The notes: generated by a model from the sequence alone, not told the origin. A DNA stretch of 64,000 nt from Candidatus Pacearchaeota archaeon (GCA_017608345.1 JAFCGA010000004.1:57-64056), one strand, 5' to 3'. Positions 3 to 46,042 are shown, numbered from the stretch's first letter. Numbers and translations: made by a program.

Positions 3-3000
3 TCTCTTAGTGTTAGGGGCGGGGAAATTAGATATGGAAGAGATGTCGCGGGAGGAGTTACTAATCGACAATGCTATTCTGAAGTTGGCGCAAATGATAG
101 TGCATGGCATTTTGTTTCATGGTCTTCAGATGGTACAAAGAATTACTTCAGTTTCGACGGAAGCATAATCACTGACGGAGATATAACTTGCAGCTCAGGT
201 ACAATGGATGGTCTATGGTTCAACGATCAAGCAACCGATACTAATTCGATTGGTGTCTTAGATAGACTCGCAGATGGGGGCTATTTCAACGGTACAATTG
301 ATGAGTTTACTATGTATGATCGAAATCTTTCAGCAGCAGAAATCCATCAACTCTACCTCGGAGGCAGAGACGGCGGCAACATAAGGAACTCTTCCTCGAC
401 TGCTGTTGGGGAGAATTATACTTGCGAAGTTAGACCGTTGGATTATGAAGATTGGGGAATTGCTAAGAACTCAACAAATCTAACTGTGTTAAACACACCG
501 CCGATAACAATAGATGCAAATGTATCTCCGTTCTCTCCAAATGCTAGCGTTGAGCTATTAGGTTATTGTAATTCCTCAGATGAGGACAACGATACGATTA
601 ACTTCTATTACAAATGGTTCCGAGACGGAGTCTTTAACTTGAGTGGGTATAACGGAGGAGCATTTACGCAAGGAATAGAAGTTAATGTTCACAATTTATC
701 AGCAGGAAATACTTCGAAAGGACAGAATTGGACCTTTTCTTGTCTAGCTAACGATGGTACGGTTAATGCTTCTTCTTGGCAGAATGGTTCAGTGGTGATT
801 CAGAGTACGGCTCCAACTCATTTGAACCCAATCTTAAATGCAACTTCCGTTAATAATTACACAACGGATAATCTGACTTGCTATAATCAAAGTACTGCGG
901 ATATAGATTCAGACTACGTTGTCAATAAATACTCTTGGTATAAGAACGGAGCTTTGAACGCTACAACTGTGTTCTTGAATGCTAGCACTGTGTTGTATAT
1001 GCCTTTTGAGCCGAACTTTACAGCTAGCGATAATTCGACTGCGGGAGTCTTAGATTATGCTAGCACTAATAATGGTCGCTTGGGTAATTCTACTGCTGGG
1101 ACTCAGCCTAATTGGATTACAAGTGGAAAGATCGGTGGAGCTTATGAGTTCGATGGAGTTGATGATTATATTGATACTGGGTTCACATTACCTTCTGGCA
1201 GTTCTTTAATGAAAAGTTACGAATTTAGTGTAGCTGCCTGGGTTAAAGTTCCTTCAACTTCTGTCGCGGCAGATAATAGCATCGTAATACGCGCAGACAC
1301 AGCCGGTGGCACGTGTGGTGACTGGAATTTAAGATTAGGTACGACTGGAGATTGGGAGTTTTGGGTTCTGCAGACAGATAATGGTTGGGTGGATGGAACT
1401 GATGTTGCTACAGCAAATTACGCTGCTACAGCTAATGAATGGGTTCATCTAGTAGGTGTATGGAATGGCACGGATAATCTTTATGTAAATGGAGTTCTAA
1501 GAGATAGTGCTTCAGCTACTGGAAACGAAGCTAATGAAGAAACTACGAATATAGAAATCGGTGCGTTTCAGCTCGGCGCTGCAGCAGGATTTCCCTTCAA
1601 CGGCTCAATCGATGAAGTCCAGATCTACAACAGAACACTTTCAGCAGCAGAAATCCACCAGCTCTACCTCGGAGGAAGAGACGGTGGCAACATAAGAGAT
1701 TCTTCCTCTACTGCGACTGGAGAGAATTATATCTGTGAAGTTCAGCCGTTAGACTATGAAGATCAAGGAACAGCAAAGAATTCCACAGCTCTGACAGTAC
1801 TAAACACACCGCCAATTACAATTGATGCAAACGTTTCGCCTTTGACTGTAACCACTTCAATTGATCTGCAAGGATATTGCAATGGAACCGATGTTGATAA
1901 TGCTACGATTAATTATTATTACCGATGGTACAAAGATGGAGCTTTGGACTTGAGTGGTTACAATGGTAACGGTTTTGCGCAAGCATCTGAAGTTAATATT
2001 CACAATCTCTCAGCAGGAAATACTTCAAGGGGGCAGAACTGGACCTTTTCTTGCTTGGCGTATGATGGCCTTTCTAATGCTACTTCGTGGAAGAATGGTT
2101 CTGTGGTGATATCTAATGCAGCTCCAACCCATTCTATGCCTTGGTTGGGAGCTCATGTTCCATTTGGGACTTCGGTAGCTTTGGATGATGGTATCGTTGG
2201 TTACTGGCAGTTTGAGTATGATAATGGAACTCATACGATGGATGAGACTGGGGTTAATAACGGTAGCTTGCAAGGACCAACTCTGAATGAGAGTGGGAGA
2301 GTTGGGAAGGCGTATAGCTTTGATGGTGGGGATTATATTAATACTACTAGTGGTCCAAGCGCAATATCTAGCGATATAACTCTTTCGGCATGGATTAAGA
2401 CAGGGAGCGATGCAACAAGCAGGGCTATCGTTGCATCAAGAGAAGGATCTGCTCCAAATCCCGGATGGGAATTTTTTGTACGTGCTTCAGGTAATGGAAA
2501 TGTGCTCTTATTTCAAAATGACAACGGAGGTTACAGAGTAGGGTCAACAAATGTAAGAGATAATGCTTGGCATCATGTAGTTGGCGTAAGAGACAATGGT
2601 GTTTTCCATGTTTATGTAGATGGAGCAAATGACGATGGTGCAAATACTAATGAAGGAACAGATATGAGCAGTTCAGAGAACACACTAATCGGATTGTCTG
2701 CTGCTAATGTTGGGTCTTATTTCAACGGCTCCATCGATGAAGTAACAATCTGGAACAGATCTCTCTCAGCAGCAGAAATCTCCGAAATCTACAACAAATC
2801 CAGAGGAACTTTCAATACTTACTCCAATGAAGATATTTCTTGCGCTGTTAATACTTCGTCTGACTCAGATGGAGATAATCTAACATATATTTACAATTGG
2901 TATAAGGATGATGCTCCGATGATGGCGCTGTATATGCCTTTTGATCATGATGATTCTGGCGGTGTGAATACTACTAAGGATTATTCTGGCTCTGAGAATC

Positions 3001-15000: not shown

Positions 15001-18000
15001 ATCTAAATAACATTCTAAATAAGAAAGAATGGTCAATCTCCCTATGGTTAAATACAATAGATGATAATGGGTTCTACTTAACTAATAGAGAATCAAACAA
15101 CAATGATGAAGTGAGATTTGCTAATGCATTTGCTTCTGCAAACATTACTATAACTTACGATGATGATACAGTGGGTGCAGTCAATGTTGTTTCATCAGTA
15201 AGTGGGAATGACAGCATCTGGCATCATGCAGTTGCTACTATTAATTCAACTACATTAAGCTTATACGTAGACGGTACATTATCTGACACGGGGGATGTTT
15301 CGGGCTCTGGAAATCTGAACCTAGATGACATAACCGTAATCGGTGCAAGAAAAGACACTGGAGGTTGGTACGCTGCAGGCCATAGTAGTTATCTTAATGG
15401 CTCAATAGATGAAGTCACCATTTGGAACCGCTCTTTATCAGCAACAGAAATCTCCGAAATCTACAACAAGTCCAGAGGAACTTTCAATACCTACTCTAAT
15501 GAAGATATCTCTTGCGCTGTCAATACTTCGTCTGACTCAGATGGGGATAATCTAACTTATATTTACAACTGGTATAAGGATTATGAGCCTTTGATGGTTG
15601 GTTACTGGTCGTTTGATACTCAATTTGATGCAACAGATAATTCAACTGCTGGCGTAACGGATTATTCTGGAAATAATAATGATGGTCGCTTGGGTAATTC
15701 AACTGCTGGGACTCAGCCGACTTGGAATGCTAATGGATATATTAGTGGGGCTTATGAGTTTGATGAGATAGATGATCATATTGTAACGGATAATGAAGCA
15801 AACTTTGATTTTGAGAGGACGGATCCATTCACTGTAGAGTGTTGGTTCAAGACGGATACAAGTGCAAGCAATGTTATTTTGGGAAAAATGGATGCAACTT
15901 CGCCTTTTCCCGGATATCAAGTCATAATCCGCAACGCGGATAATTGGCTTATGTTATACATAATCTCAGGAGCAGGTGGAGCAGGCGACAGAATTGTAGT
16001 CGAAGGAAACACAGTTGTAACTGACAATGCTTGGCATCATATGGTTGCCACATATGCTGGAAATGAGGACGCTTCTGGAGCTCTGATATATGTAGATGGA
16101 GCACTAGAAACAATGAACACAGTAACCAACGGCTTAACTGGTTCAATTTTGAATAATATACCTTTCCAAATTAGCGGAAAGGATGGGGCTGTTGATTTGT
16201 ATAAAGGTGCAATAGACGAAGTCCGTGTCTACAAATACACCCTATCCGCAGCTCAAGTCCAAGCGCTCTATCTCAACAAAACCAACACAATAGTCTCAGA
16301 AGAAACTTCTAAGGGAGAAAATTACACTTGCGAAGTCACGCCAAATGATGCTACAACCGACGGAACCTTACTAAACTCGTCTACGTTGATTATTTACAGC
16401 GCTGCACCTACTCATGCGAATCCAATCTTAAACGCTACTTCAATTAATAATTACACAACCGATAATTTGACTTGCTATAATCAATCGACAGCAGATATTG
16501 ATGGGGATTATCCAGTAAATGTATTCTCGTGGTACAAGAATGATGTTTTGAACGCTACAACTGTGTTCTTGAATGCTAGCACTGTGTTGTATATGCCTTT
16601 TGATGAAAATATTACTGGGAATTTACAGACAGTGAGAGATTATGCTTCTAATAATGATGGTGTCTTGGGTAATGTAACTGCTGGGACTGATCCGACTTGG
16701 AATGCTAGTGGGAAAGTTGGTGGAGCTTATACGTTCGACGGAGTTGATGATTATATCAATGTTGGAGATAATACTAACTTCGAATTTGCTGCGAATAGTG
16801 CTTTTGCATTATCTACTTGGATCAAAGCTAATTCAGCAGTAGTTCAAGAAAGCAGAATTATATCTAAGAGATATAATGTTGTTGGAGGAAATTCCCAATA
16901 TATGCTCAATGTCAATAGTACTGGTGCGATTAGATTCTGGTTATATGATGGTGCGGATAATTATGCAAAATATCCAAATGCAATAACTTTCGGTCAATGG
17001 CATCATGTCTTAGCACAAAGAAAGACCGATGGAACGATGGAAGTTTATGTTGATGGAGTAATTGGGAGCGTAACGGATTCTACAACTGCTACAGCGGGCG
17101 TAAACGACGGAAATCTTACGGTTGGCACTGATGAAAGGACTGCAAATCGTGAGTTCAACGGCTCAATAGACGAAGTACAAATATACAACAGAACTCTTTC
17201 AGCAGACGAGATCTCTCAATTATATCTCGGAGGCAGAGACGGTGGCAACATAAGAGATTCTTCTTCAACTGCAACGGGAGAAAATTATACTTGTGAAGTT
17301 CAGCCATTAGATTATGAAGATTGGGGAATTGCTAAGAATTCAACAAATCTAACTATTCAAAACACAGCTCCAGTAACAATCGATGCAAACGTATCTCCGT
17401 TCTCTCCGAATGCTAGTGTAGAGCTATTAGGTTACTGTAATTCATCCGATGAGGACAACGATACGATTAATTTCTACTATCAATGGTACCGCGATGGCGT
17501 CTTTAACTTAAGTGGATACAATGGCGGAGCTTTCACACAAGGTGTTGAGGTAAATGTGCATAATCTTTCAGCAGGAAACACTTCAAAAGGACAGAACTGG
17601 ACCTTTTCGTGCTTGGCTAACGATGGAGTTCTGAATGCTACCTCTTGGCAGAATGGTTCTGTGGTAATTCAGAGTACAGCTCCTACTCATGCTAATCCGA
17701 TCTTAAATGCAACTTCAATTAATAATTATACAACTGACAATTTGACTTGTTATAATCAAAGTACTGCAGATATAGATTCAGACTATGTTGTCAATAAGTA
17801 CAGTTGGTATAAAAATGATGTTTTGAACGCTACGACTGTCTTCTTGAATGCTAGCACTGTGTTGTATATGCCTTTTGAGCCGAACTTTACTGCTTCGGAT
17901 AATTCAACAGCAGGAGTTTTAGATTATGCTGGAAGTAATAATGGTCGCTTAGGTAATTCTACTGCTGGGACTCAGCCGAATTGGACTAGTGAAGGGAAAG

Positions 18001-21000
18001 TTGGGGGAGCTTATGAATTCGATGGTGTTGATGATTATATTAATTTAGATACTCATGTTAATAGTTTTGAAGGTTGGAATATTGGAGCAATTTCTGTTTG
18101 GTTTAAGGTAACTTCTGCATCTGCATGTTTATATTCCATTTCAAATAAAGCTGATACTAATGATATTATGGATTTTACTGTTGGCGTTTCAACTGGAAGT
18201 TATGGTGATGAAAGTATTCGTTTTTCTCATGTTCCAAATGGAGCAGAAACTCTTGGAATGTTTGTTAGAAATGGGCATACAGCATATACTGATGGAAATT
18301 GGCATCACGCAGTATTAACAATTGGTGGGGCAGGTAATGCAATCTATATAGATGGAGTTAGTCAAGCGATAACTTATAGAGCGGGTAATGCTGGAACAAA
18401 TGAGTTTTCTGATTTGTTTGCTGCTGACACAGTAGGCATTGGGCGTTACGCAGCAGGAGGGGTTACAAATTTTGAGATTAATGGCACAATAGATGAAGTC
18501 CAAATCTACAACCGCGCATTATCAGCAGCAGAAGTCCACCAGCTCTACCTCGGAGGAAGAGACGGTGGCAACATAAGAAATTCCTCATCAACAGCTAAAG
18601 ATGAGAGCTACATTTGTGAAGTTCAGCCATTAGATTATGAAGACCAAGGACTAGCGAAGAATTCAACTGCATTGACGGTTCTAAATACTGTGCCTACTCA
18701 GACTCAGCCGATCTTAAATGCTACTTCGGTAAATAATTATACAACTGATAATTTGACTTGTTACAACCAATCAACAGCTGATGATGATTTAGATGCGGTG
18801 ACTAATATTTATAATTGGTATAAGAATGATGCTCCGATTATGATGCTAAATATGCCTTTTGATCATGATGATTCTGGTGGAGTTAACACAACTAAAGATT
18901 ATTCAGGAAGAAACAATCATGGACAGTTAGGAACCTCAGCAGATTCAGATTCTGCTGAACCTACGTGGGATACATCTGGGAAAGTTGGAGGAACTTACAA
19001 TTTCGACGGGAGTAATGACTATATACGAATCAGCGACAGCTCTTCACTAGATCAAACAAGCGCATTTAGTATAGAAACTTGGGTAGACATAAATGGAACT
19101 GCTAAGGATAATACTATAAAATCAATAGCTAGCAAAGGAAATCTCGACAAGGAAGCTGCAGGTTATAATTTATACTGGAATGATGTATATAGTGAGAACT
19201 TCTTGAATTTCTCATGTAATGGATGGACAGCAGCACAGCCACCTACAACTTCCTACATGAAGAATTGCACGAACTTTTGGAAAGGATATGCGGAGGATAC
19301 TTACTCTGCAGTTGATAATTGTAATACTTGTACACTAAATAATAACCCGGAAGGCGCCACAGACGGTGCGTACATTGCAACAACTAATGCCGACTTGGGA
19401 CCAGTATGGATCTACAAGTCCTTCCCAACTACTCCTGGCGAAAATTTCACAGTTGATATTCGTTATAGAATAACTAAAAAAACTACTGGCGGAGGTCCGA
19501 TGAATGGCGGACTATATGTTTGGGAAGGAACAGTAGTTCCTTGTAGCGGTAATAGGCAGACTGGATCTTGTGAAGATCCGAATGGAAACACAACAGATGC
19601 AATAGCATCAGATCATACTACTTGCGATCTCGCAGGATGGTGTGCTTGGCAGGATTACACCACCACGAATATTACAAACGCGTCAACGTTTACAGTTGGG
19701 ATGTATACTTGGGATTCCTGGAACATTTGGGCAGTTTACTTAGATGTAGACTATGTAAACGTCTCAACGCTTAGTAAACGTGTGAGTTTCATGCTCGGTG
19801 ACGCAAGTAATAATATGAGCACAATATTTGCATCTAACGTGTCCGACGGTTGGAGACATATTGTTGGTACGTATGATGGCGGAACTCAGAGCTTATATGT
19901 TGATGGTGTGTTAAACACAAGCACGAGTTTTACCAATCTAATTGGTACAAATAACTTAGATTTAATCATCGGTTCCGAGCCGAATAATAATATATATCAT
20001 TATGAGGGTAAGATAGATGAAGTTCGTATATATAATCGTTCTCTATCTGCTGCTCAAGTCTATCAACGTTACTTAGAAGGCAACAACTCAATCTCAACTT
20101 CAACAATCGTTTCCGACGATACTACTGCTGGCGAAGTCTGGAACTGCTCTGTAACACCAAATGACGGCGAAGCTGACGGAACAACTCTAACTTCATTAAA
20201 TCTAACTATTCAAAACACCGCTCCAGTAACAATCGATGCAAACGTATCTCCGTTCTCACCGAATGCTAGCGTTGAGCTATTAGGTTATTGTAACTCATCA
20301 GATGAAGATAATGATACGATTAACTTCTATTACAAATGGTTCCGAGATGGCGTCTTTAACTTGAGTGGCTACAACGGCGGAGCATTTACACAAAGAGTAG
20401 AGGTAAATGTTCATAATTTATCAGCTGGAAACACTTCAAAGGGTCAGAATTGGACCTTTTCTTGTCTAGCGAATGATGGAATTCTAAATGCTAGCTCTTG
20501 GCAAAATGGATCTGTGGTGATTCAGAGTACAGCTCCTACGCATTTGAACCCTATTTTGAACTCAACATCCGTTAATAATTACACAACGGATAATTTGACT
20601 TGCTATAATCAAAGTACTGCGGATATAGATTTCGATCATGTGGTTAATAAATACGCTTGGTACAAGAATGGTGTTTTGAACGCCACAACTGTGTTCTTGA
20701 ATGCTAGCACCGTGTTGTATATGCCTTTCGAGCCGAACTTTACAGCTTCGGATAATTCAACTGCTGGCGTTTTGGATTACGCTGGAACTAATAATGGTCG
20801 CTTGGGTAATTCAACTGCTGGGACTCAGCCGAATTGGACTTTAGATGGGAAAGTGGGTGGAGCTTATGTGTTTGATGGTATTAATGACCGTATTCAAATT
20901 GCTGATAGTGCATCTCTAGATGCAATTAAAGATATTACAGTTGAAGCGTGGATTAATAGTAATGATATTACTTTACAACAAACGATAGTTGGTTTTATTG

Positions 21001-24000
21001 ATAATGTCGTATCGAAAGGACCACAGTTAATGATTAGGGCGGATGGTGGAATAATATGGGCTGTACAGAATGGAGTAGGTGCCTATCGTAGATGTTATAC
21101 CGCAATAGGTTTACTCGAAGCTAATAAGTGGTATCATATCGCTGGAACTTTTGATGATACTTCAAAGGCTCGTGCAATATATATCAACGGAGAGTCAATA
21201 GCTTTTGAGGGCGATGATCTTAATTTGGGTGTGATGGCACACGGAGATATAAGGGCGATCGGCGCTAGTTCAGTTCCCAACCCCCTCTATAATTTCAATG
21301 GATCCATAGATGAAGTCCAGATCTACAACAGAACACTTTCAGCAACAGAAATCCACCAGCTATATCTCGGAGGAAGAGACGGTGGAAACATTAGAAACTC
21401 TTCCTCAACAGCTAAGGACGAGAACTACATCTGCGAAGTTCAGCCAATGGACTATGAAGATATGGGGACTGCGAAGAATTCAACTGCATTGACAGTTCTA
21501 AATACGGTGCCTACTCAGACAGCTCCGATTCTGAATGCAACTTCAATATACAATTACACAACGGATAATTTGACTTGTTATAATCAAAGTACGTCAGATG
21601 TAGATGGAGATAGTTTAACTAATATTTATAATTGGTACAAGAATGAACAGCCGCTCATGCGATTCAATCTGCCGTTTGATCACGATGACTCAGCAGGAGC
21701 TGGAAAAACAAAAGATTACTCCGGTTCTGGAAATGATGGTCAGCTAGGCGCAGCAGCAGATGGAGATGGGGCAGAGCCGATATTCAATTCTACCGGAGCA
21801 ATTGGAGGCGCTTACGAGTTTGATGGTACAAATGATTATATCGAACTTCCAGCTACAGCAAAAGTAACTGGTGAGTTTACAATCAGTGTTTGGTTCAAGT
21901 TAGATCAAGAAATAACCGACGAGCCATCAGCCCCGGCTTTGTTTGGAGGTGCTGCAATGCGGGGGCCAGCCGAAAAAGGTGGTGCCTCATTGGCTTTCCT
22001 TATGACTACTGGAAAACTTTATTTTGATACCTATAACACCACTACTCGGGCTGCCAGCATTTCTACAACAGCAGTTTGGGGAACAACAGATTGGTATCAT
22101 GTTGTTGCAACGAGAAATTCCACTACACAAGAATTGTGGATAAATGGAATTAGAGAAGATTCCGGCGATACGGTAAAAGGTAGTTTAAGTTGGGCAGCAG
22201 GTTGGGGAGCAGCCAAAATCGGATATGCAAGTTATATATACTTTAATGGAACCATTGATGAATTTAAAATATATGATCATTCTTTAACAGCAGAACAGAT
22301 AAAAACTCTTTTTTCAAATAAAACTGATATTATCGTCTCAGACGAAACAACAGCTGGAGAAAACTGGACCTGCGAAGTTACGCCAAATGATGCTACATCC
22401 GACGGAACAACGCTAAACAGCACTACAAACATAACAATAATAGCTGCTCCAATAACTTTATACTCAAATATTACGCCAGCAGCTCCAAATGTATCTGCAG
22501 ATCTAGAAGGATTCTGTAATGGAACCACCGCTACAAATGTAAACTATTATTACAGCTGGTATAAAGATGGTGTCTTAAATATAAGCGATTACGACGGCGG
22601 AGCTTACGCTTCAAACGCAGAAATAAACATACATAACTTAACAGCAGGAAACACCTCTTACAATGAGAACTGGACTTTCTCTTGCTTAGCAAATGATGGT
22701 GTAATTAACGCTACGTCATGGCAGAATTATTCAGTAATTATCTCAGACGTGACTGAGCCAGTTGTAACATTCAACGCTCCAATAGATGGAGAAAACGTCT
22801 CAGGTTCAATAATAATCAACGCGACTATCACAAACGGCGCTTCAGGAGTAAACGCATCCAGAGTCTATTATTGGCTAGAAAATGCTACAGGAAACCAAAC
22901 AAAATGGACTAGCATGAGCAACATTACAGTGGATCTATTCAACACTTCATTTAACATAAATTCAATAGCGGACGGTTATTACAACATAACTATAAACGCT
23001 TCAGACAATGCAGGAAATATTAACGCAAGTGAAAAAGTGCAGATACAAATAGACAACACTCAGCCATCAATTATAGTAACCGCGCCAATAAATAATTCCA
23101 TACTAACTTCAGCAATACTAAACATCACCGGAACAGCCTCAGATGCAAATCCAGACAACGTCACTGCAAATAATGCTATCTTCGGCCAGAACTTAAACAC
23201 ATACACGAATTGGAATTTCTCAAACATCTCAATGGATGACGGGATTTACACAGCAATAATCACTGCAAATGATACTCTCGGAAACTCAAATTCAACTAGC
23301 GTCACGTTTACAATAGATACAACTCCACCAGCAGTTAACATAACTAATCCTTCAGATGGCGATACTGTTAGCGAAGTAATAACTATAAACAGCACAATTA
23401 CAGACGCAACGAGCGGGGTAAACGCTTCAAGAGTTTACTATTGGCTATCGAATGAAACAGGAAACCAGACTGCTTGGACATCAATGACTAACACAAGTAG
23501 CGTATTTAGTGCAAGTTTCGATACTACAACGCTGGGAATCGGAGCATATAATATAACAATTAATGCTACAGATATAGCTAACTTAGAGAACTCAACAGAA
23601 TATATCCAAATAACTATCACTGCAGATAATATCGGACCGTCAGTAACCTTAGAATCGCCGACAGATAGAACTATAACTTCGACCAGGACAATAACGTTCC
23701 TATACAGCGTAAATGATGTAGGATCAGATATTAGCAACTGCTCGATATGGACTAATCTCAACGGTACTTGGCTATTAAATGCAACTAATTCTACGCCAAT
23801 AGTTGAATCAACTTCTGGGCAAGAATTCACGATTGATAGCTTGCCGTACACTACTTTCTTATGGAATATACAGTGCTATGATACCGCACCTACACCAAAT
23901 TCCAGATTCGCAACTAATAATTACACCTTGACTATTGCTCTGTCTAGCGCGGGAGGCGAAGACGGAGTAAATGTCGGTGCAGGCGGTAGCAGGACAATAG

Positions 24001-36630: not shown

Positions 36631-37806
36631 CTATTTAACAATTATATCTTCGGTTACTGTCTCTGTTTCTTTCTTATATGTAGCAGTTATTATTATACTA
36701 TATTTCCCGCCAGTCATCGGAGCTTCGATTATGTCTTTAAACTCTCCAACATTATCCGTGAATAGCTTATGCGTTTCGCCAGTTGGAGTGAGTATATCCA
36801 CGGTTGCGCCTACTGCTGCTGAAGATTCAAAGAATACTTTTCCAGCAATATTTATCTTCGCACCGGGATTCGGGCTCGGTGGATATATTGCTACCTCCAG
36901 ATTCAGCTGAGACGGGATTATGAATATTGAGAAGAAGAAAATGCCTACTGCAAACATGACTACGATGTGCTTTACACCGGCGATTAATTTCTCCTCTGCA
37001 ATTACTCCGGCAATCAATCCTGCGCAAATTGACTCTACAATAGTCATAATTAAAAACAGATTCTTAAAGTAGCCGACAGTCATTTGACCGCCTTCAATCC
37101 CCTGAAGCGATATTCCGCTAAATATACCTAGCTTTTGGATGAAAATAATCGGAGCGAGGATTTTATAGACACCAATTATTACACCAATAAAAATAAAGTA
37201 GATTAAGTACATTACAATTATTTGCTGATGCATAATTGATTTTTTCTCAGCCTCTAATTGTTTTAATATGCTAACATTATCAGATAACGATCCTAGAGTA
37301 GTTTTAATATCGCCGCCGCTGTGATATGCTTCAAGAATAATATTGTTTATTCGCGTTATTAATGCACTCCGAGACAGAGTTTTAGTAAATCTATTCCACG
37401 CTTTTGGGAAGGGCACATCCCAAGATAACCAAATATTTAATTTGTCAACATAACTCGATAATACATTGTATTTTGTCTTAGCACAGGTATCAACTGCTTG
37501 CGGAATCGTCATCCCAGCAGATACAGACTGCGACATATCTCTCAAGAAATTAGGATAATTATTCTCAGCTTTCTTTATCTCCTGAAATTCTAAGAAATTA
37601 AAAATCAGATAAGGAAGAGCAACAATAATTAGCCCCAGTGCAAATAGAGTAATTATTACTGTTGTGTTAACTTCTAGCACATACGAAATTATTGCAGTTA
37701 TAAATGGTATTGGGAGGGTTAGAAGTAGCACAAATACTTTCCTTTTTCTAAGCCCAAGTACTTCTTTTTCCCAAAATGATTTCTTGAATATATCTATTCC
37801 GACCAT
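36631..37806 (-). CDS. TadC/FlaJ-like (GspF-family) polytopic membrane protein with an extra C-terminal extracellular beta-sandwich domain
   Basis: It has multiple TM helices and a T2SS-F-like organisation. It overlaps the upstream paralog by 13 nt. Confidence 0.6.
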   Translation of the reverse strand: MVGIDIFKKSFWEKEVLGLRKRKVFVLLLTLPIPFITAIISYVLEVNTTVIITLFALGLIIVALPYLIFNFLEFQEIKKAENNYPNFLRDMSQSVSAGMTIPQAVDTCAKTKYNVLSSYVDKLNIWLSWDVPFPKAWNRFTKTLSRSALITRINNIILEAYHSGGDIKTTLGSLSDNVSILKQLEAEKKSIMHQQIIVMYLIYFIFIGVIIGVYKILAPIIFIQKLGIFSGISLQGIEGGQMTVGYFKNLFLIMTIVESICAGLIAGVIAEEKLIAGVKHIVVMFAVGIFFFSIFIIPSQLNLEVAIYPPSPNPGAKINIAGKVFFESSAAVGATVDILTPTGETHKLFTDNVGEFKDIIEAPMTGGKYSIIITATYKKETETVTEDIIVK

Positions 37807-38712: not shown

Positions 38713-40428
38713 TCATTTTCCCATATAATTCGCTAGCTGCCTAGGATTACGATAGTACATATTAATAAACTGAGCAACTTGGCTGAACTGGTAGTTTCCT
38801 TTTGATTTTAGCCAATCTAAAATATTTACTCTTCTTAGAATTTCATCTTGTACATCTTTATCATTCCATCCTTGCCGCTCTGCTAACTGCTTAAGTATAT
38901 AACTATCTGCAGGAATAAATGTATCCTTAACTGGGTCTCTCTTGAATACAACGTGAGTATTAAGTGACTTATTTTTGTTATTATAGCCCTCTATTTCAAT
39001 GACACTGCCAACACGTCGGATAAACTTGCCTTCCTTCTTAACTTTCTCAAGAAATACAATAATATCGAGATTCTCCAGCAAGGATAACGGTAAATTTATT
39101 GGTCGTGTAGTAAGACGATCAATAATCGCTCCAACAGTATCTGCGTGCAAGGTTGATAATCCCGGATGTCCTGTACTCATTGCATGGAAAAGTACGTTTG
39201 CTTCTCTGCCCCTAACCTCGCCGACAATTAGATAATCTGGACGCTGCCTAAGTGCAGCTTTAAGGAGGGTATCCATATCCACTTGACCGTATCCGCCAGG
39301 GCCTACGCCAGCTCTCGTTACTTGTGGCATCCAATTTATATTCATAAGTTGAATTTCCGCGGTGTCTTCGATAGAAACTATCTTCAGATTTGGGTCAATG
39401 AACATCGCTAGCACATTTAGAAAAGTCGTTTTACCTGTAGCAGTTGTTCCAGAGATTAGGATGGATTTCTCCTTCTCAATAGCAAGCCAGAGGTATGCAA
39501 GTATCATCGAATCAACAGTTCCAAAGTTCATAAGATCAACAGGAGTAAGCGGAGTTCTGAAGAATTTTCTTATTGTAAAATTAGATCCCTTACGCGCGAT
39601 GTCTGTGCCATAAGTTATCTGAACTCTTGATCCGTCAGGTAAGCTACCATCCATTAGCGGCTCTGCAACGGAAATAGTCCGCTTGCATTTCTGAGCTAAT
39701 TTAATTGCAAAGGAATCTAGGTCTTCTCGCTCCGTGAATTTTACATTTGTCGGGATTTCTCCATATATGGGGTTTCTATGAAACACAAATATTGGTAAAT
39801 TTACGCCGTCACAAGAAATATCCTCGATGTTTGGATCATGAACTAGCGCATCTATTTGATCAAGTCCGATTACCCGCCGAAATATATAATATTTTGCGGT
39901 TAATATTTCCTGATTTGTGAGTCTTGCACCGAGTTCTTTCCATATTTTCTCTATTTTTTTATCAATATAAGTGTATACTGCATCTTTCGCGCGTAATTTA
40001 TTAAAGTTAATTTCTAAGCTATCATGAAGTTCCTCAAGCGTTCGGTGAATCAGTTTTTGCAGTTTCGGACTTATCTGCGGCTCAATTAGATTATAAATCA
40101 ATTGATTATTCCGAGCATCGAATTTGATTCTAGCATGGGCTAGCGGAATTAGCTGATCTTTAACACGCAGAGTAGTCAAAGGATAAGTTTCATCAACAGT
40201 TCTTAATTTCTCATGATAGTCAATCTTACTAGATACTACTCCTTCTCGACTAGCTGGAATCGCGATTCTAGAAACTACCTGAGTGGTATTTTCTTCGACA
40301 GGTGGAGCAGTCTTGACTACCCTCTGCTTGGGTTGCTCTTCTTTTTTCGGCGGCGCTTCTAACTTAGGACTATCTGATAACTTATTTAATTTCGATTTTA
40401 TTTGCTTGAGAAATTCTTTTCTACGCAT
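38713..40428 (-). CDS. FlaI/TadA/VirB11-family type IV pilus/archaellum assembly ATPase
   Basis: Walker A (GTTATGKTT), Walker B and the His box are present, and the 571-aa protein has an N-terminal extension. Confidence 0.9.
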   Translation of the reverse strand: MRRKEFLKQIKSKLNKLSDSPKLEAPPKKEEQPKQRVVKTAPPVEENTTQVVSRIAIPASREGVVSSKIDYHEKLRTVDETYPLTTLRVKDQLIPLAHARIKFDARNNQLIYNLIEPQISPKLQKLIHRTLEELHDSLEINFNKLRAKDAVYTYIDKKIEKIWKELGARLTNQEILTAKYYIFRRVIGLDQIDALVHDPNIEDISCDGVNLPIFVFHRNPIYGEIPTNVKFTEREDLDSFAIKLAQKCKRTISVAEPLMDGSLPDGSRVQITYGTDIARKGSNFTIRKFFRTPLTPVDLMNFGTVDSMILAYLWLAIEKEKSILISGTTATGKTTFLNVLAMFIDPNLKIVSIEDTAEIQLMNINWMPQVTRAGVGPGGYGQVDMDTLLKAALRQRPDYLIVGEVRGREANVLFHAMSTGHPGLSTLHADTVGAIIDRLTTRPINLPLSLLENLDIIVFLEKVKKEGKFIRRVGSVIEIEGYNNKNKSLNTHVVFKRDPVKDTFIPADSYILKQLAERQGWNDKDVQDEILRRVNILDWLKSKGNYQFSQVAQFINMYYRNPRQLANYMGK

Positions 40429-41582: not shown

Positions 41583-43055
41583 TTAAGAGAGAATCCACGT
41601 TTCTCCATTACGACTACTTGCGTCTTGACCACCAAATAAAAGTATTTTATTGGTATTCTGTATAGACGCCATTGAATGAAAATACCTTCCGTCAGGTAAA
41701 TTCGATAGTTTTATTTCAGTCCAGCCATTAGAACTAACATCATATAGCCAAGTGTCATCGGCATAAGTTCCACTAGCATCTCCGCCAAATACTACTATTT
41801 TATCTGTATTGGATATAGTAGCTAATTGATGACCTTGCCTTTCAGTAACTGAGTATGCGGGATTTTTGTTGACCCAGATATTATCACTTAAGTCATATAT
41901 CCACGTCTCAGCATCATAACCCCAACTATCTATACCGCCAAATAACAAAATCTTATCCTCAGAATATATTACTGACATTGCATGTGCATATCTAGCTCCA
42001 GGACTTGTACTTGGAGCCATATTAGTCCAGATGTTGTCGCTCAAGTCATATATCCACGTGCCATTACAGCTATTTGAACCTGAACCGTCGCAGTTGCCGC
42101 TTCCATCTGAGCCGCCAAAAAGAATTATTTTGTCATCGCCGTAAACCGTCGCAAGCGCGGATCCCCCTCTAGCAGTTAGACCGATAGCGGTGGTTCCTTG
42201 AGTCCAGGTGTTGTCGCTTAAGTCATATATCCAAGTTCCATTACATCGACTATTTCCTGAACCGTCGCAGTTGCCGCTTCCATCTCGTCCCCCGAAGAAA
42301 AGTAATTTATCTGTTGAGTAAATATTTGCCGCAGCACCTTGGTATCTTGCACTAAATCCAACAGCAGTAGTTCCTTGGGTCCAGGCATTATCACTTAAAT
42401 CATAAATCCAAGTTCCATTACATAGACTACTTCCTGAGCCATCGCAGTTGCCGCTTGCGTCATCCCCACCAAATAACACTATTTTATCATCAGCAGACAT
42501 TGAAGCCATTGAATGATACATTCTAGCGCTAGGTTTAGTTGCGATAATCTTCTCTTCCCAAACATTCGATTGTATACCTGCAATAAATGCCGTATACACA
42601 GAATCATCGCCAAATGCGAAGTAGGCATCATATTTCATACCTTTTTCTAAATTAGCGCAATCTGTACCACCCAAATCAAGATTGATTAATTTAATTTCTC
42701 CCACAGATAAGTCAAACGGACAATTATCACACGTATCGCTATTGAACGAAGCCGTACATGAACCGCCCTGATTGGAAAGTATAACCAAATCGCCAATGTC
42801 CCCAAGAGCTTTTAATTCTCTGGTTCCCGCGTTCTGAATAACGATCTCCAAAGTAGCAAGCTTTAACTTGTGCTCTATTGTTTTTATCTCAATATTCCCT
42901 GCAGCTTTATCTAGCACTTGAGAATGAGATCTCTCGGTGCTCGCTTGAAGCTCACCTTGAACTTTTATTGCCCAATAATAAGCCGCAGTAGCTATAGCAA
43001 TAGTAATCATAATTACTAAGATTAGCGCAAGAATAAGACTTACTCCTTTCTTCAT
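41583..43055 (-). CDS. Type IV pilin fused to a Kelch-type beta-propeller (paralog 4)
   Basis: MKKGVSLILALILVIMITIAIATAAYYWAIKVQGELQ (KG cleavage-site-like) is followed by six to seven repeats of FGG.DGSGNCDGSG...CNGTWIYDLSDN.WT. Confidence 0.75.
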   Translation of the reverse strand: MKKGVSLILALILVIMITIAIATAAYYWAIKVQGELQASTERSHSQVLDKAAGNIEIKTIEHKLKLATLEIVIQNAGTRELKALGDIGDLVILSNQGGSCTASFNSDTCDNCPFDLSVGEIKLINLDLGGTDCANLEKGMKYDAYFAFGDDSVYTAFIAGIQSNVWEEKIIATKPSARMYHSMASMSADDKIVLFGGDDASGNCDGSGSSLCNGTWIYDLSDNAWTQGTTAVGFSARYQGAAANIYSTDKLLFFGGRDGSGNCDGSGNSRCNGTWIYDLSDNTWTQGTTAIGLTARGGSALATVYGDDKIILFGGSDGSGNCDGSGSNSCNGTWIYDLSDNIWTNMAPSTSPGARYAHAMSVIYSEDKILLFGGIDSWGYDAETWIYDLSDNIWVNKNPAYSVTERQGHQLATISNTDKIVVFGGDASGTYADDTWLYDVSSNGWTEIKLSNLPDGRYFHSMASIQNTNKILLFGGQDASSRNGETWILS

Positions 43056-43095
43056 AATTAAATTAGAGAATACATATATATAAAACTACTCCGGG

Positions 43096-44526
43096 TCAAT
43101 AATATATCCAAGTATCATTTATGTCCTCGATGATATATTTGCCGCCAAAAAATAGTACTTGCTCTGAGTCGCCGATTTCAGTTAGAGAATGACTATCCCT
43201 ATTGCTAGGGCTATTTATGGGTGATTTCTTTGTCCAAGTATTATCACTTAAGTCGTAAATCCAGGTTCCACCTTCGAATTGCTCGGTATATCTCCCGCAA
43301 AACATAACTATTTTATCTGTACTGTAAAGTGAAGCCATATCATGCTCATAAATTGGTCCAGGCCCATGGCTTAGCTTTCGTGTCCAAGTATCATCGCTAA
43401 GATCATAGACCCAAGTATCTTGATAAATTCCTGCGCCATAGCCACCGTGTAAAAGAACCTTATCCTCGCTAGACATAAAAGTCATAGCGTGATCCGTTCT
43501 AGCAATTAAAGAAGTAGGAGTAGTTCCTTGGATCCACGTATTGTCGCTTAGATCATATATCCAAGTTCCATTGCAATAATTACTCCCCGAGCCATCACAA
43601 TTGCCACTAACAAAATCCTCTCCACCAAATAACAAGACTTTATCTGTATTGTATATCCTTGCCATAGAGTGCCCTCGCCTAGCTCCGGGATTTACTCCTG
43701 GAAGCATATTTGTCCAGGTGTTGTCGCTTAGATCATATATCCAAGTTTCTGCATTTAGCGTACCGTCCCAGCCACCAAACATTAAAACTTTATCATTATC
43801 ATAAATCATTGCACTTGCGTGTTTCGAGCGATTAGATGGCGAAGTGGTTACATTCTTCTGAGTCCAACTATCTTCGCTTAGATCATACATCCAAGTATCT
43901 TGGTAATAAGGACTTCCAGCACAATTACTACAATCTCCACCAAAAAGAACGACCTTATCTGTTCGATATATATTTGCAAAACTATGGTCGCTTCTAATCG
44001 AGGGAGCATTAGCTGGATTCTTTTTTTCCCAAACATTAGTTTTTGAGATCGGAACAAAATTAGTCTGAGCATGTACTTCAGAGGATCCAAAATAAATAGA
44101 ATATTCCGTTCCTATTTCTAAGTTAGCGCAATCAGTACCGCCAAATAATAGATTCATAGTAATTATCTCATTAACATCTAAAGCTATAGGGCAAACATCG
44201 CAAGTAGAAGAATTAAACGGGAGACTACAAGAAAAGCTGCCTGAAGAGATAACTAATGTATCTCCAGCATCACCAATCTGCTCAATCTTTCTGCCTCCAG
44301 AATTTTCAAGGACTATTTTAACATTGTCAGTATTAATATTATAATTAATATTAACTATATTTAATTCTCCAACTACTCTATCTGAAAATTTATCCTGACT
44401 TTCATCACCGGCTCCTTGCATCTGTCCTTGAATCTTCATTATCCAATAAAAAGCTGATGCGGAGATAGCTAGAGTCATCATAATTATCAAAACCAATGCA
44501 ATAACATTACTTATAGCTCGCTTCAT
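43096..44526 (-). CDS. Type IV pilin fused to a Kelch-type beta-propeller (paralog 3)
   Basis: The N-terminus is MKRAISNVIALVLIIMMTLAISASAFYWIMKIQGQMQ, followed by repeats of VLLFGG...TWIYDLSDNTWT. Confidence 0.75.
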   Translation of the reverse strand: MKRAISNVIALVLIIMMTLAISASAFYWIMKIQGQMQGAGDESQDKFSDRVVGELNIVNINYNINTDNVKIVLENSGGRKIEQIGDAGDTLVISSGSFSCSLPFNSSTCDVCPIALDVNEIITMNLLFGGTDCANLEIGTEYSIYFGSSEVHAQTNFVPISKTNVWEKKNPANAPSIRSDHSFANIYRTDKVVLFGGDCSNCAGSPYYQDTWMYDLSEDSWTQKNVTTSPSNRSKHASAMIYDNDKVLMFGGWDGTLNAETWIYDLSDNTWTNMLPGVNPGARRGHSMARIYNTDKVLLFGGEDFVSGNCDGSGSNYCNGTWIYDLSDNTWIQGTTPTSLIARTDHAMTFMSSEDKVLLHGGYGAGIYQDTWVYDLSDDTWTRKLSHGPGPIYEHDMASLYSTDKIVMFCGRYTEQFEGGTWIYDLSDNTWTKKSPINSPSNRDSHSLTEIGDSEQVLFFGGKYIIEDINDTWIYY

Positions 44527-44558
44527 AGTTTAAATATAATTCAAAGATATTTAAGGGT

Positions 44559-45995: not shown

Positions 45996-46042
45996 AATTT
46001 AGTTAGGTTCTAGAATTATTTAAGAGTTGCTCTTCACCGATA

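What the first reader, a model, noticed from the sequence alone, without database searches (positions are those of the whole stretch)
2734..15600. The intein occupies one of seven near-identical scaffold-B sites, and six paralogous sites in the same gene are empty
The insertion point (between ...AVNTSSDSD and GDNLTYIYNWYKDD of the scaffold-B consensus) is duplicated, with near-identical nucleotide sequence, at about 2860, 7900, 9810, 11730, 13620 and 15520. Only the copy at 4782 is occupied. This is a natural within-gene experiment: the intein has not homed into the other copies, which is consistent with loss of its endonuclease. The repeat also provides the exact unoccupied extein sequence.
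Basis: seen in the sequence. Interest (0 to 1): 0.55.

Follow-up and report, generated by a model that had tools for sequence, protein, structure and literature searches.

The report
Intein carrying antisense toxin-antitoxin genes
One of seven repeated sites in a giant archaeal surface-protein gene holds an intein with no homing endonuclease. In that slot, on the opposite DNA strand, sits a three-gene toxin-antitoxin operon, an arrangement that recurs in about 60 DPANN archaeal genomes and that I could not find described.

Summary
An ORF of at least 8,211 aa (204-24839) contains seven 'CAVN…YIYNWYKDD' sites. Only the copy at 4782-5987 is interrupted, by a 402-aa intein (Cys1, block B SPKH, …SGN|Ser+1, HINT fold). 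Joining the flanks restores the repeat length.

Two caveats apply. A 24-nt patch at the junction is only 55% identical to the six empty sites, which are 97% identical to each other there. The empty sites also have Gly, not a nucleophile, at +1.

The intein's middle is neither a decayed endonuclease nor junk. On the minus strand it encodes a tight operon: a VapB-like gene, a 98-aa antitoxin candidate and a RelE/ParE toxin, with an archaeal TATA promoter and a palindromic operator.

The sense frame stays stop-free across this operon (P≈2.5e-4 by synonymous resampling). Free-standing orthologues of the toxin are closed in that frame.

The same design recurs in 83 of 89 family members from about 60 genomes, mostly labelled DPANN archaea. 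Cargo is PIN or RelE/ParE toxin-antitoxin operons, it differs between inteins at the same site, and the family occupies at least seven extein sites. A relative on a viral contig has a normal LAGLIDADG endonuclease in the same slot.

My best reading is an intein that persists by addiction rather than homing. That function is inferred, not shown.

The parts
204..24839 (+). Host gene: giant repetitive surface protein (at least 8,211 aa) built of LamG-like and small Ig-like modules, with a C-terminal TM anchor. The frame is open from window nt 3, so the start may lie upstream.
2841..2912 (+). Empty paralogous site 1 (CAVNTSSDSD|GDNLTYIYNWYKDD); Gly at +1
4752..4781 (+). N-extein flank of the occupied site (CAVNNTADAD). 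It differs from the empty sites at 4 of the last 6 residues.
4782..5987 (+). Intein, 402 aa: Cys1 … Asn402, followed by Ser+1
   Evidence: (TIGR01445 24.6 bits vs cut-off 24.5)
4782..5006 (+). N-terminal splicing half (block A CYDEETEILT, block B LLVSPKHKVY); pLDDT above 95
5007..5792 (+). Sense-frame linker in the endonuclease slot: about 262 codons, rich in Ser/Leu/Asn, with no stop, no Pfam family and predicted disorder. It is the reverse complement of the cargo operon.
5793..5987 (+). C-terminal splicing half (block F GKIYDVDVENN, block G VTWSGN); pLDDT above 90
5988..6029 (+). C-extein flank (SDNLTYIYNWYKDD); Ser+1 replaces the Gly of the empty sites
5007..5276 (-). Cargo gene 3: RelE/ParE-family toxin, 89 aa. 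It is codon-aligned antisense to the intein frame and uses no TTA, CTA or TCA codons.
   Evidence: PF05016 31.5 bits > 23; TIGR02385 29.3 > 27.9
5273..5569 (-). Cargo gene 2: 98-aa antitoxin candidate with a VapB-like N-terminal motif and a conserved C-terminal WHPVDE motif. It overlaps the toxin start by ATGA and matches no curated family.
5570..5752 (-). Cargo gene 1: small VapB/RHH-like protein. The ORF from ATG 5752 gives 60 aa. Homologues are 47-52 aa, so ATG 5725 (51 aa) is the likelier start.
   Evidence: (NF050799 E 8e-7, below cut-off)
5763..5792 (-). Putative archaeal promoter and operator of the cargo operon: BRE-like GGAAGC (5787-5792), TATA TTTATAAT (5779-5786) and palindrome CCTGTGTATCCACAGG (5763-5778). 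It lies between cargo gene 1 and the C-terminal splicing half.
   Evidence: the same motif class lies upstream of most cargo operons in the family
7899..7970 (+). Empty paralogous site 3
9792..9863 (+). Empty paralogous site 4
11715..11786 (+). Empty paralogous site 5 (GDNVTY variant)
13617..13688 (+). Empty paralogous site 6
15513..15584 (+). Empty paralogous site 7 (the downstream module diverges after YKDY)

Best explanation
Shown: 4782-5987 is an endonuclease-less intein inserted in frame in one of seven paralogous repeats of a giant surface-protein gene. Its endonuclease slot is occupied, on the opposite strand, by a compact three-gene type II toxin-antitoxin operon: a VapB-like gene, a 98-aa antitoxin candidate and a RelE/ParE toxin. 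The operon has its own archaeal BRE/TATA promoter and a palindromic operator. The cargo genes are written so that the complementary intein frame has no stop codon.

Inferred from the sequence: the host ribosome reads through about 262 codons of meaningless, disordered Ser/Leu/Asn-rich linker. The two HINT halves then fold together and the whole insert is spliced out of the protein. The antisense orientation with an open complementary frame is the only layout in which an independently expressed operon can sit inside a coding region without truncating it.

Inferred function: the toxin-antitoxin module takes over the persistence role of the missing homing endonuclease. A cell lineage that loses the intein also loses the labile antitoxin and is poisoned by the stable toxin. 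Loss could occur by gene conversion from one of the six empty paralogous repeats, or by recombination with an intein-free allele. The element would thus behave as a toxin-antidote addiction element rather than a nuclease-driven homing element. This would explain how an intein can persist in a non-essential, hypervariable, repetitive gene. The conserved splicing halves would also act as homology arms through which cargo is exchanged between inteins.
For: Intein identity. Cys1, block B S-x-x-H, terminal Asn and Ser+1 are present. TIGR01445 scores at its cut-off. In the AF2 model, residues 1-78 and about 335-403 have pLDDT above 90, and every listed Foldseek PDB hit (50 rows) is an intein or HINT domain. 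The flank-joined extein is length-identical to six uninterrupted paralogues.

The cargo is real. ParE_toxin and RelE_StbE score above their curated cut-offs. GC and AT skew reverse over about 5000-5800. Across the family, antisense proteins out-score the sense translation of the same DNA in 99.8% of 2,017 homologous pairs. The PIN catalytic acidic residues and the RelE 'RVH…HHD.AY' motif are conserved. Free-standing orthologues exist.

The sense frame is kept open by selection. There are 0 stops in 248 codons, against 20 and 17 in the other two + frames. Resampling synonymous codons with window codon usage gives 6.0 expected stops and P(0)=2.5e-4. Ordinary window genes have 6.5 and 3.5 opposite-strand stops per 100 codons in the two relative frames used here, so about 11 would be expected. 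The window toxin uses 0 TTA/CTA/TCA codons among 15 Leu/Ser codons, whereas free-standing orthologues use 6 and 5.

Recurrence. 83 of 89 family members, from about 60 genomes mostly labelled DPANN archaea, carry 2-6 antisense cargo ORFs. Of 84 toxin candidates, 47 match PIN_2, 13 DUF5615 and 11 ParE. 44 of 106 partner ORFs match a VapB antitoxin model. None of 86 sense linkers matches any Pfam family. 166 of 190 cargo genes use one relative frame. Expected stops are 1.5-3.3 per intein and none is observed.

Tight integration. The toxin stop codon lies a median of 8 nt from the N-terminal splicing half and overlaps it in 35 of 83 cases. Cargo covers 89% of the linker. A conserved BRE/TATA promoter abuts the C-terminal half.

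Cargo exchange. The same extein site in one MAG, with splicing domains 72-77% identical, carries RelE-type cargo in one copy and PIN-type cargo in the other (L010/L012, L044/L055).

Ancestral state. Relatives carry a sense-strand LAGLIDADG endonuclease in the same slot.
Against: Nothing here is experimental. Splicing, toxicity, neutralisation and antisense transcription have not been shown.

The penultimate intein residue is Gly rather than the usual His. PF14890 scores below its cut-off.

The two putative antitoxins do not reach any curated cut-off.

The addiction role is an inference from what type II toxin-antitoxin modules do on plasmids and integron arrays. The data fit equally well with toxin-antitoxin cassettes merely exploiting a harmless landing pad.

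The resampling test across the family is conditioned on N and C halves lying in one open frame. Roughly 5-10 broken copies were seen but not counted rigorously.

The antitoxin genes are nearly stop-free in the favoured frame even when free-standing. The evidence for selection on the open frame therefore rests mainly on the toxin gene.

Only about half of the family instances showed both canonical termini in my simple scan.

How the family reaches new sites without a nuclease is unexplained.
Confidence: 0.55

Rival explanations
1. Safe harbour only. Toxin-antitoxin cassettes are the selfish party. The endonuclease slot of an intein is one of the few places in a gene-dense DPANN genome where about 0.8 kb can be inserted without harm, because it is spliced out of the protein. 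Cassettes therefore accumulate and are swapped there, and the intein gains nothing.
For: Different toxin-antitoxin families occupy the same slot: RelE/ParE, PIN_2, DUF5615/DUF433 and Mut7-C. Six inteins carry two cassettes. L091 has a tandem array of three cassettes with only an intein remnant. Free-standing orthologous cassettes exist.
Against: The position and orientation are almost invariant. The toxin 3' end often overlaps the N-terminal splicing half, and a conserved promoter abuts the C-terminal half. This indicates long co-evolution rather than opportunistic insertion. Cargo-less mini-inteins of this family are rare, 6 of 89. This rival does not exclude a stabilising side-effect on the intein.
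Confidence: 0.3
2. Host-beneficial module. The antisense operon is kept because it serves the cell, either as abortive-infection or stress defence, or as an antisense-transcription switch that modulates expression of the giant surface-protein gene.
For: The operon has a strong consensus promoter with an operator inside a 24.6-kb gene. Type II toxin-antitoxin modules are known to act in phage defence (established knowledge). The hosts are surface proteins likely to be exposed to viruses or host cells.
Against: Nothing links cargo type to host protein or to insertion site. The same site carries different toxin families. Regulation would not require a protein-coding toxin-antitoxin pair with conserved catalytic residues.
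Confidence: 0.1
3. One reading: an ordinary mini-intein whose endonuclease has decayed. The middle is meaningless remnant sequence, and the empty paralogous sites simply show that homing has stopped.
For: There is no endonuclease domain in the sense frame and the linker is predicted disordered. Six sites are empty.
Against: The middle encodes three contiguous minus-strand genes, and the toxin passes curated family thresholds. These genes are conserved as proteins across about 60 genomes, and a promoter precedes them. A decayed endonuclease would not stay open for 262 codons or match toxin-antitoxin families on the other strand.
Confidence: 0.03
4. Artefact: a chimeric assembly join, or a pseudogene in which a toxin-antitoxin cassette happened to land.
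For: This is a metagenome-type sequence and the reads were not available.
Against: The insertion is in frame, with intact catalytic residues and exact restoration of the repeat length. The sense frame is open against odds of about 2.5e-4. The same architecture appears in 83 instances from independent assemblies and sources.
Confidence: 0.02

Closest known systems
Canonical inteins with a nested LAGLIDADG homing endonuclease (for example PI-SceI and PI-PfuI; here the relatives P0011-P0036 and the viral-contig locus L086)
   Same: They share the HINT splicing fold, Cys1, block B His, a terminal Asn followed by Ser, and an insertion slot between blocks B and F. The N-terminal half is about 50% identical to endonuclease-bearing inteins in GTP cyclohydrolase I and ThyX.
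   Different: There is no endonuclease. The slot holds independently transcribed genes on the other strand rather than a domain fused in frame. The hosts are repetitive surface proteins rather than conserved replication or metabolic enzymes, and at least 7 unrelated extein sites are used.
Mini-inteins (endonuclease-less inteins)
   Same: No homing endonuclease. The two splicing halves are expected to fold together across a linker.
   Different: Mini-inteins are typically about 130-200 aa with a short linker (established knowledge). This one has a linker of about 262 aa (140-616 aa across the family) whose sequence is dictated by genes on the opposite strand.
Type II toxin-antitoxin modules (RelBE/ParDE, VapBC) as stabilisers of plasmids, integron cassette arrays and genomic islands
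   Same: A small antitoxin gene lies upstream of the toxin with overlapping stop and start. There is a palindromic operator at the promoter, the toxins belong to the RelE/ParE or PIN families, and the module is associated with a mobile element. The stabilising role is recalled from the literature and was not tested here.
   Different: I know of no toxin-antitoxin module that lies inside a protein-coding gene on the antisense strand with the complementary frame kept open. Here the element being stabilised would be an intein.
Polymorphic toxin systems that use HINT domains (Zhang, Iyer and Aravind; recalled from memory; PMC3113570 appeared but was not read)
   Same: A HINT domain is associated with a toxin and an immunity or antidote protein.
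   Different: In those systems the HINT domain releases a C-terminal toxin domain of the same polypeptide on the same strand. Here the toxin is a separate antisense gene and the HINT domain is a true in-frame intein.
Group I introns that carry a homing-endonuclease gene on the antisense strand (recalled from memory, not checked)
   Same: A self-splicing element harbours an independently expressed gene in reverse orientation.
   Different: Introns are removed from the RNA, so the sense strand need not stay translatable. Here splicing happens at the protein level, which forces dual coding over hundreds of codons.
Toxin-antidote gene drives (Medea, wtf, peel-zeel) – a functional analogy only
   Same: The proposed logic is the same: carriers are protected and lineages that lose the element are killed.
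   Different: These are eukaryotic meiotic or maternal systems with no homology to this element. No drive has been shown here.

Membership tests
Intein (HINT superfamily, class 1) | HINT fold formed by the N- and C-terminal splicing halves | tested here: met
   In the AF2 model, residues 1-78 and 335-403 have pLDDT above 90. The top Foldseek PDB hits are all inteins, BIL or Hedgehog HINT domains, with prob 1.00 for nearly all.
Intein (HINT superfamily, class 1) | N-terminal nucleophile (Cys/Ser1) and block B T/S-x-x-H | tested here: met
   Cys1 (TGC at 4782) and LLVSPKHKVY are present. Ser65 and His68 are invariant in alignment A1. TIGR01445 scores 24.6 bits against a cut-off of 24.5.
Intein (HINT superfamily, class 1) | C-terminal Asn followed by a Cys/Ser/Thr +1 extein residue | tested here: met
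   The intein ends …VTWSGN|S. W[SC]GN|S was found in 48 family members.
Intein (HINT superfamily, class 1) | Penultimate His (typical, not obligatory) | tested here: not met
   The penultimate residue is Gly, here and throughout the family.
Intein (HINT superfamily, class 1) | In-frame insertion whose removal restores an uninterrupted host sequence | tested here: met
   The flank-joined extein has the same length as six empty paralogues, although 5 of 23 residues differ.
Intein (HINT superfamily, class 1) | Autocatalytic protein splicing | not testable with these tools
   Needs expression of the precursor.
Homing (endonuclease-bearing) intein | LAGLIDADG, HNH or other endonuclease domain in the sense frame | tested here: not met
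   No Pfam family matches the window linker or any of 86 family linkers. The linker is predicted disordered. Relatives do have PF14528.
Type II toxin-antitoxin system, RelE/ParE superfamily | Toxin matches the family model above the curated threshold | tested here: met
   PF05016 scores 31.5 bits (cut-off 23) and TIGR02385 scores 29.3 (cut-off 27.9). The YafQ model scores 60 bits, below its 87 cut-off.
Type II toxin-antitoxin system, RelE/ParE superfamily | Small antitoxin gene immediately upstream in the same operon | tested here: met
   5273-5569 overlaps the toxin start by 4 nt (ATGA), and 5570-5752 abuts it. The gene order is conserved in relatives.
Type II toxin-antitoxin system, RelE/ParE superfamily | Antitoxin with a recognised DNA-binding fold (RHH, AbrB or HTH) | tested here: inconclusive
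   The 60-aa ORF hits VapB model NF050799 at E 8e-7 but below the cut-off (29.5 vs 60 bits). The 98-aa ORF hits nothing. 44 of 106 family partner ORFs hit the same VapB model.
Type II toxin-antitoxin system, RelE/ParE superfamily | Autoregulated promoter with a palindromic operator | tested here: inconclusive
   TTTATAAT plus CCTGTGTATCCACAGG lie upstream of the first cargo gene, and the same layout is seen in many relatives. This is sequence evidence only.
Type II toxin-antitoxin system, RelE/ParE superfamily | Toxicity of the toxin and its neutralisation by the antitoxin | not testable with these tools
   Needs expression assays.

The most novel reading that the evidence does not exclude
This is a previously undescribed class of composite selfish element, widespread in DPANN archaea, which could be called 'addiction inteins'. 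In these inteins the homing endonuclease has been replaced by exchangeable type II toxin-antitoxin operons written on the antisense strand, under obligate dual coding. The element would persist, and perhaps spread, by toxin-antidote killing of lineages that lose it rather than by DNA cleavage. The conserved splicing halves would serve as recombination arms for cargo exchange.
Probability: 0.35. Interest if true: 0.92.

Novelty: new variant of a known kind. Interest (0 to 1): 0.82.

Why it matters
Inteins are thought to persist by two routes: homing driven by an endonuclease, or sitting in essential sites where an imprecise deletion is lethal. This would be a third route, addiction, and it would explain inteins in non-essential, hypervariable surface-protein genes.

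It is also a large natural example of selected antisense dual coding, with hundreds of codons per element and about 19,000 cargo codons across the loci examined.

It shows that splicing domains are expected to tolerate disordered inserts of 140-616 aa, which is relevant to intein engineering.

It exposes a systematic annotation gap. Gene callers report the long sense ORF and miss the toxin-antitoxin genes hidden inside it. Only 11 homologues of the window toxin were found among 5.8 billion clustered proteins in a word-indexed search of limited sensitivity, although dozens of homologous cargo toxins are present in the DNA examined here.

For the original question, it gives a concrete and testable reason why an intein with six empty paralogous templates nearby has not been erased by gene conversion.

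Tried and rejected
(1) I looked for an endonuclease or any other domain in the sense linker. Pfam and NCBIfam gave nothing for the window and Pfam gave nothing for 86 relatives.

(2) Tandem Repeats Finder does not report the 1.9-kb repeat units because its longest period is 500. I located the sites by motif instead.

I re-ran it with the full intein and full-length hits.

(5) I searched for free-standing cargo homologues inside the loci already held, to use as controls. It found 14, but all lay antisense in further open frames and so were unusable as controls. True free-standing controls came from the toxin protein search.

(6) A within-gene synonymous permutation for the window alone was uninformative (P0=0.67). 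The toxin contains no stop-generating codons to shuffle, so the test cannot detect avoidance. I used codon-usage resampling, ordinary-gene rates and free-standing orthologues instead.

(7) Rfam found no family in 4500-6300, and there are no tRNAs in the window.

(8) Eight literature searches combined intein with toxin-antitoxin, antisense, opposite strand, addiction module, VapC, DPANN, Woesearchaeota, cargo and nested. None found a description of this arrangement (one review checked). The library lacks most subscription journals, so absence is not proof.

(9) I considered whether the PIN or RelE cargo could itself be the homing nuclease. I rejected this as the primary reading because the only feature common to all the cargo families (RelE/ParE, PIN_2, DUF5615+DUF433, Mut7-C) is that they are toxin-antitoxin toxins, and these are RNases by established knowledge.

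Full report
THE OBSERVATION. The window begins with one enormous ORF, 204..24839 (+), of 8,211 aa. Its frame is open from nt 3, so the gene may start upstream of the window. The translation is a mosaic of LamG-like and small Ig-like modules rich in N-x-S/T sequons, and it ends in a TM helix and a Lys-rich tail. The module boundary 'CAVNTSSDSD-GDNLTYIYNWYKDD' occurs seven times, starting at nt 2841, 4752, 7899, 9792, 11715, 13617 and 15513.

Only the second copy is interrupted, by 1,206 nt (4782-5987). The insert starts with TGC (Cys), ends with AAC (Asn) and is followed by TCT (Ser). Joining the flanks gives AVNNTADAD|SDNLTYIYNWYKDD, exactly the length of the empty copies.

Two qualifications matter. 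First, similarity is high only locally. Over -120..+75 nt the empty copies are 90% identical to each other. Over +/-240 nt identity drops to 69-79%. Second, the junction itself is a sharply bounded divergent island. From -21 to +3 nt the six empty copies are 97% identical to each other, but the occupied copy is only 55% identical to them. By my arithmetic on the figures, the rest of the occupied flank is about 91% identical to the empty copies. The island changes five residues, including +1 Gly->Ser.

The empty sites therefore lack the +1 nucleophile that class 1 splicing needs (established intein chemistry). They are not equivalent unoccupied targets.

IT IS AN INTEIN. The N-terminal 71 aa match TIGR01445 (intein N-terminal splicing region) at 24.6 bits, against a cut-off of 24.5. 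The Pfam splicing-domain model gives only a sub-threshold hit. An alignment of the splicing halves with five relatives shows conserved Cys1, block B 'VS..H', block F 'GKIYDVDV.N' and 'W[SC]GN|S'. I ran AlphaFold2 on the 402-aa insert plus Ser+1 (403 aa), aligned with 33 database homologues. Residues 1-78 and about 335-403 have pLDDT above 90, and nearly all of 83-333 is below 50. In a Foldseek search of the PDB, all 50 listed matches are inteins, bacterial intein-like domains or Hedgehog HINT domains. The penultimate residue is Gly rather than the common His. Splicing itself cannot be tested here.

The disordered middle is the reverse complement of three contiguous minus-strand genes:
- 5752->5570 encodes 60 aa, or more probably 51 aa from the ATG at 5725, to judge from homologues of 47-52 aa. 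It is VapB-like (NF050799, E 8e-7, below cut-off).
- 5569->5273 encodes 98 aa and matches no curated family.
- 5276->5007 encodes 89 aa and overlaps the previous gene by ATGA. It matches ParE_toxin PF05016 at 31.5 bits (cut-off 23) and RelE_StbE TIGR02385 at 29.3 bits (cut-off 27.9).

GC and AT skew both invert across about 5000-5800, as expected for coding on the other strand. Upstream of the first gene, in the 40 nt before the C-terminal splicing half, lies a BRE-like GGAAGC, a TATA box TTTATAAT (5779-5786) and a 16-nt palindrome CCTGTGTATCCACAGG (5763-5778). This is the layout of an autoregulated archaeal toxin-antitoxin promoter. That reading is an inference from sequence alone. The toxin's stop codon sits three codons after block B.

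THE SENSE FRAME IS KEPT OPEN. Across 5007-5752 the intein frame has 0 stops in 248 codons. The other two + frames have 20 and 17. I resampled synonymous codons of the three cargo genes with the codon usage of 26 other window genes. This gives 6.0 expected sense-frame stops and P(0 stops)=2.5e-4. Five of the six expected stops come from the toxin, which lies codon-aligned antisense.

In ordinary window genes the two relative frames used here carry 6.5 and 3.5 stops per 100 codons, which predicts about 11 stops over the cargo (my arithmetic).

The cleanest control is natural. Free-standing orthologues of the toxin exist at 61-66% amino-acid identity to it. L093/L094 lie beside an MFS transporter gene, and L092 is a third example. 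They use TTA, CTA or TCA for 6 and 5 of their Leu/Ser codons and are closed in all three opposite frames. The window toxin uses none of these codons among its 15 Leu/Ser codons.

The antitoxin genes are nearly stop-free in their relative frame even when free-standing. The signal of selection therefore comes mainly from the toxin.

IT IS A FAMILY, NOT A ONE-OFF. Searching the 402-aa insert against the protein database returned full-length matches at 29-34% identity, and they include the 'nonsense' linker (P0001, P0005, P0006, P0007). It also returned classical inteins that match only the N-terminal 70 aa at about 50% identity. Many of these carry LAGLIDADG_3 and sit in GTP cyclohydrolase I or ThyX.

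The contigs behind the close matches all carry antisense toxin-antitoxin genes inside the intein. The cargo is RelE/ParE with a partner in L001, L002, L004 and L007, PIN_2 with a partner in L003, and an additional DUF433 gene in L007.

A scan of one genome per GTDB species with the splicing-half alignment gave 78 loci from about 60 genomes. Most are labelled Woese-, Pace-, Nano-, Alti- or Aenigm-archaeota, or simply 'archaeon'. Profile HMMs of the two halves found 89 cases in which the N and C halves lie in one open frame. Of these, 83 have a Ser/Leu/Asn-rich linker of 140-616 aa holding 2-6 contiguous antisense ORFs, 190 in all. Six inteins carry two cassettes, and only six are cargo-less mini-inteins.

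The family-wide numbers are as follows:
- Of 84 toxin candidates, 47 match PIN_2, 13 DUF5615, 12 PIN, 11 ParE_toxin and 10 Mut7-C; one protein can match several of these families.
- 44 of 106 partner ORFs match the VapB antitoxin model.
- None of 86 sense linkers matches any Pfam family.
- Antisense proteins out-score the sense translation of the same DNA in 99.8% of 2,017 homologous pairs (mean BLOSUM62 score 164 vs 90). For the window toxin, identity is 51-59% antisense against 28-40% sense.
- The PIN acidic residues and the RelE 'RVH…HHD.AY' motif are conserved.
- 166 of 190 cargo genes use one relative frame, 22 use the codon-aligned frame and 2 use the third. In the favoured frame, by my derivation, stops can arise only at Tyr, His or Gln codons that follow a pyrimidine-ending codon.
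- Expected sense-frame stops are 1.5-3.3 per intein depending on the null model, and none is observed. This test is conditioned on an open frame. Perhaps 5-10 broken copies were seen.
- The toxin's stop codon lies a median of 8 nt from the N-terminal half and overlaps it in 35 of 83 cases. Cargo fills 89% of the linker.
- Most operons are preceded by 'AAAGATTTAAATA'-type BRE/TATA boxes, either about 30 nt from the ATG or about 55 nt from it. In the second class a palindrome and a GGAGGT lie in between.

MOBILITY AND CARGO EXCHANGE. The family sits in at least seven unrelated extein contexts, each recurring across genomes. The window's site was not seen occupied elsewhere in the DNA I held. Many host ORFs hold two or three inteins. 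In single MAGs, the same extein site with splicing domains 72-77% identical carries RelE-type cargo in one copy and PIN-type cargo in the other (L010/L012 and L044/L055, each pair on two contigs of one MAG). In L033, two inteins of one gene precede near-identical C-exteins yet carry different cargo. A relative on an IMG/VR viral contig (L086) has a sense-strand LAGLIDADG endonuclease in the same slot and ends NGN|S. This marks the probable ancestral state.

HOW IT MOST LIKELY WORKS.

Shown: the architecture, the openness of the sense frame, the identity and conservation of the cargo, and the recurrence across genomes.

Inferred: the ribosome reads through the linker, the HINT halves associate, and the insert is spliced out. 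The cargo operon is transcribed from its own promoter on the other strand. An independently expressed operon can live inside a coding region only if it is antisense and its complement has no stops, which is exactly what is seen.

For function, I favour addiction, at about 0.55 together with the architecture. Losing the intein removes the antitoxin gene and frees the stable toxin. Loss could occur by gene conversion from one of the six empty paralogous repeats or from an intein-free allele. This would let an endonuclease-less intein persist in a non-essential, repetitive gene, where the usual protection (imprecise deletion being lethal) is absent.

The main rival, at about 0.3, is that toxin-antitoxin cassettes merely use the slot as a harmless landing pad. 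A host-beneficial defence or regulatory role (about 0.1), a plain decayed mini-intein (about 0.03) and an artefact (about 0.02) are less likely. How the family reaches new sites without a DNA endonuclease is unexplained (note).

COMPARISON WITH WHAT IS KNOWN, AND NOVELTY. As an intein it passes every structural and sequence criterion I could test, except the non-obligatory penultimate His. It fails the endonuclease criterion of homing inteins. The cargo passes the toxin and operon criteria of type II toxin-antitoxin systems. The antitoxin fold and the operator are suggestive only.

Eight full-text searches found no description of toxin-antitoxin genes, or any genes, encoded antisense inside inteins. 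The library omits most subscription journals, so this is not proof of absence.

I rate it a new variant of known kinds: a new composite of intein and toxin-antitoxin module with obligate dual coding. If the addiction and drive logic is confirmed, it would deserve to be called a new class of selfish element.

VERDICT ON THE FINDING AS WRITTEN. The seven-site observation is confirmed. The inference 'not homed because the endonuclease was lost' is only partly supported, because the empty sites are not splice-competent targets and the endonuclease slot is occupied by something more interesting.

Noticed in passing
window 41583-47473 (-): Four tandem paralogous genes (476-490 aa). The two scanned are Kelch-repeat beta-propellers. 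They lie next to type IV pilus or archaellum-like ATPase and membrane genes (T2SSE 38713-40428, T2SSF 36631-37806).
   Followed up: partly
window 1-204 and 24300-24839: The giant ORF's frame is open from window nt 3, so the true start may lie upstream of the window. The C-terminus has a TM helix followed by a Lys-rich tail, consistent with a membrane-anchored surface protein.
   Followed up: partly
window ~19100-19900 (giant ORF aa ~6300-6560): A unique Cys/Trp-rich segment interrupts one LamG-type module and has no counterpart in the other repeats.
   Followed up: no
L091:1-3027 (GCA_053536115.1): Three toxin-antitoxin cassettes lie in tandem (two RelE/ParE-type, one PIN_2). The opposite strand is open for 704+308 aa, but only a block-B remnant (ILVVSPERKIYGK) and a signal-peptide-like start remain. 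It looks like a decayed intein that has become a toxin-antitoxin array.
   Followed up: partly
many loci, e.g. L016:1004, L049:6737, L061:656, L064:1228: About a third of family members have a shortened N-terminus, 'KCY(I/K)x(K/S)WK(L/Y)F', which lacks about 10 residues of block A. Whether these can splice is unknown.
   Followed up: no
L003:6408-8480 (P0007) and about 40 other instances: In P0007, about 130 aa of extra D/E/K-rich sequence lies between block F (VLVRR) and the terminal WSGN|S; similar extra sequence may explain the ~40 instances in which my scan did not find WSGN|S, though these were not inspected individually. In P0007 the PIN cargo also lies before block B rather than after it, a different insertion point within the intein.
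   Followed up: no
L023, L027, L039, L040, L057, L066: These inteins carry two complete toxin-antitoxin cassettes in tandem. Their linkers are 477-616 aa and are still open in the sense frame.
   Followed up: partly
L086:3001-3993 (IMG/VR viral contig): A member of the same intein family with a conventional sense-strand LAGLIDADG endonuclease, ending NGN|S. It is the probable ancestral form.
   Followed up: partly
L093:1-778, L094:12-571, L092:1200-1729: Free-standing orthologues of the window cassette. The toxin is closed on the opposite strand, but the antitoxin gene is still stop-free in the favoured relative frame. This suggests either an intrinsic property of the antitoxin sequence or recent escape from an intein.
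   Followed up: partly
L015, L019/L068, L078, L010/L012/L023/L027/L085: Loci with this archaeal-type intein and promoter sit in MAGs labelled Saccharibacteria, Hydrothermota, Rickettsiales or Methanosarcinales. These contigs were probably mis-binned.
   Followed up: no
L001:64-501 and 1979-2824: The intein-bearing ORF P0001 is flanked by an IS200-type Y1 transposase gene and an rve integrase gene. The intein starts at residue 4 of that ORF, so the host gene may be truncated or relocated.
   Followed up: no
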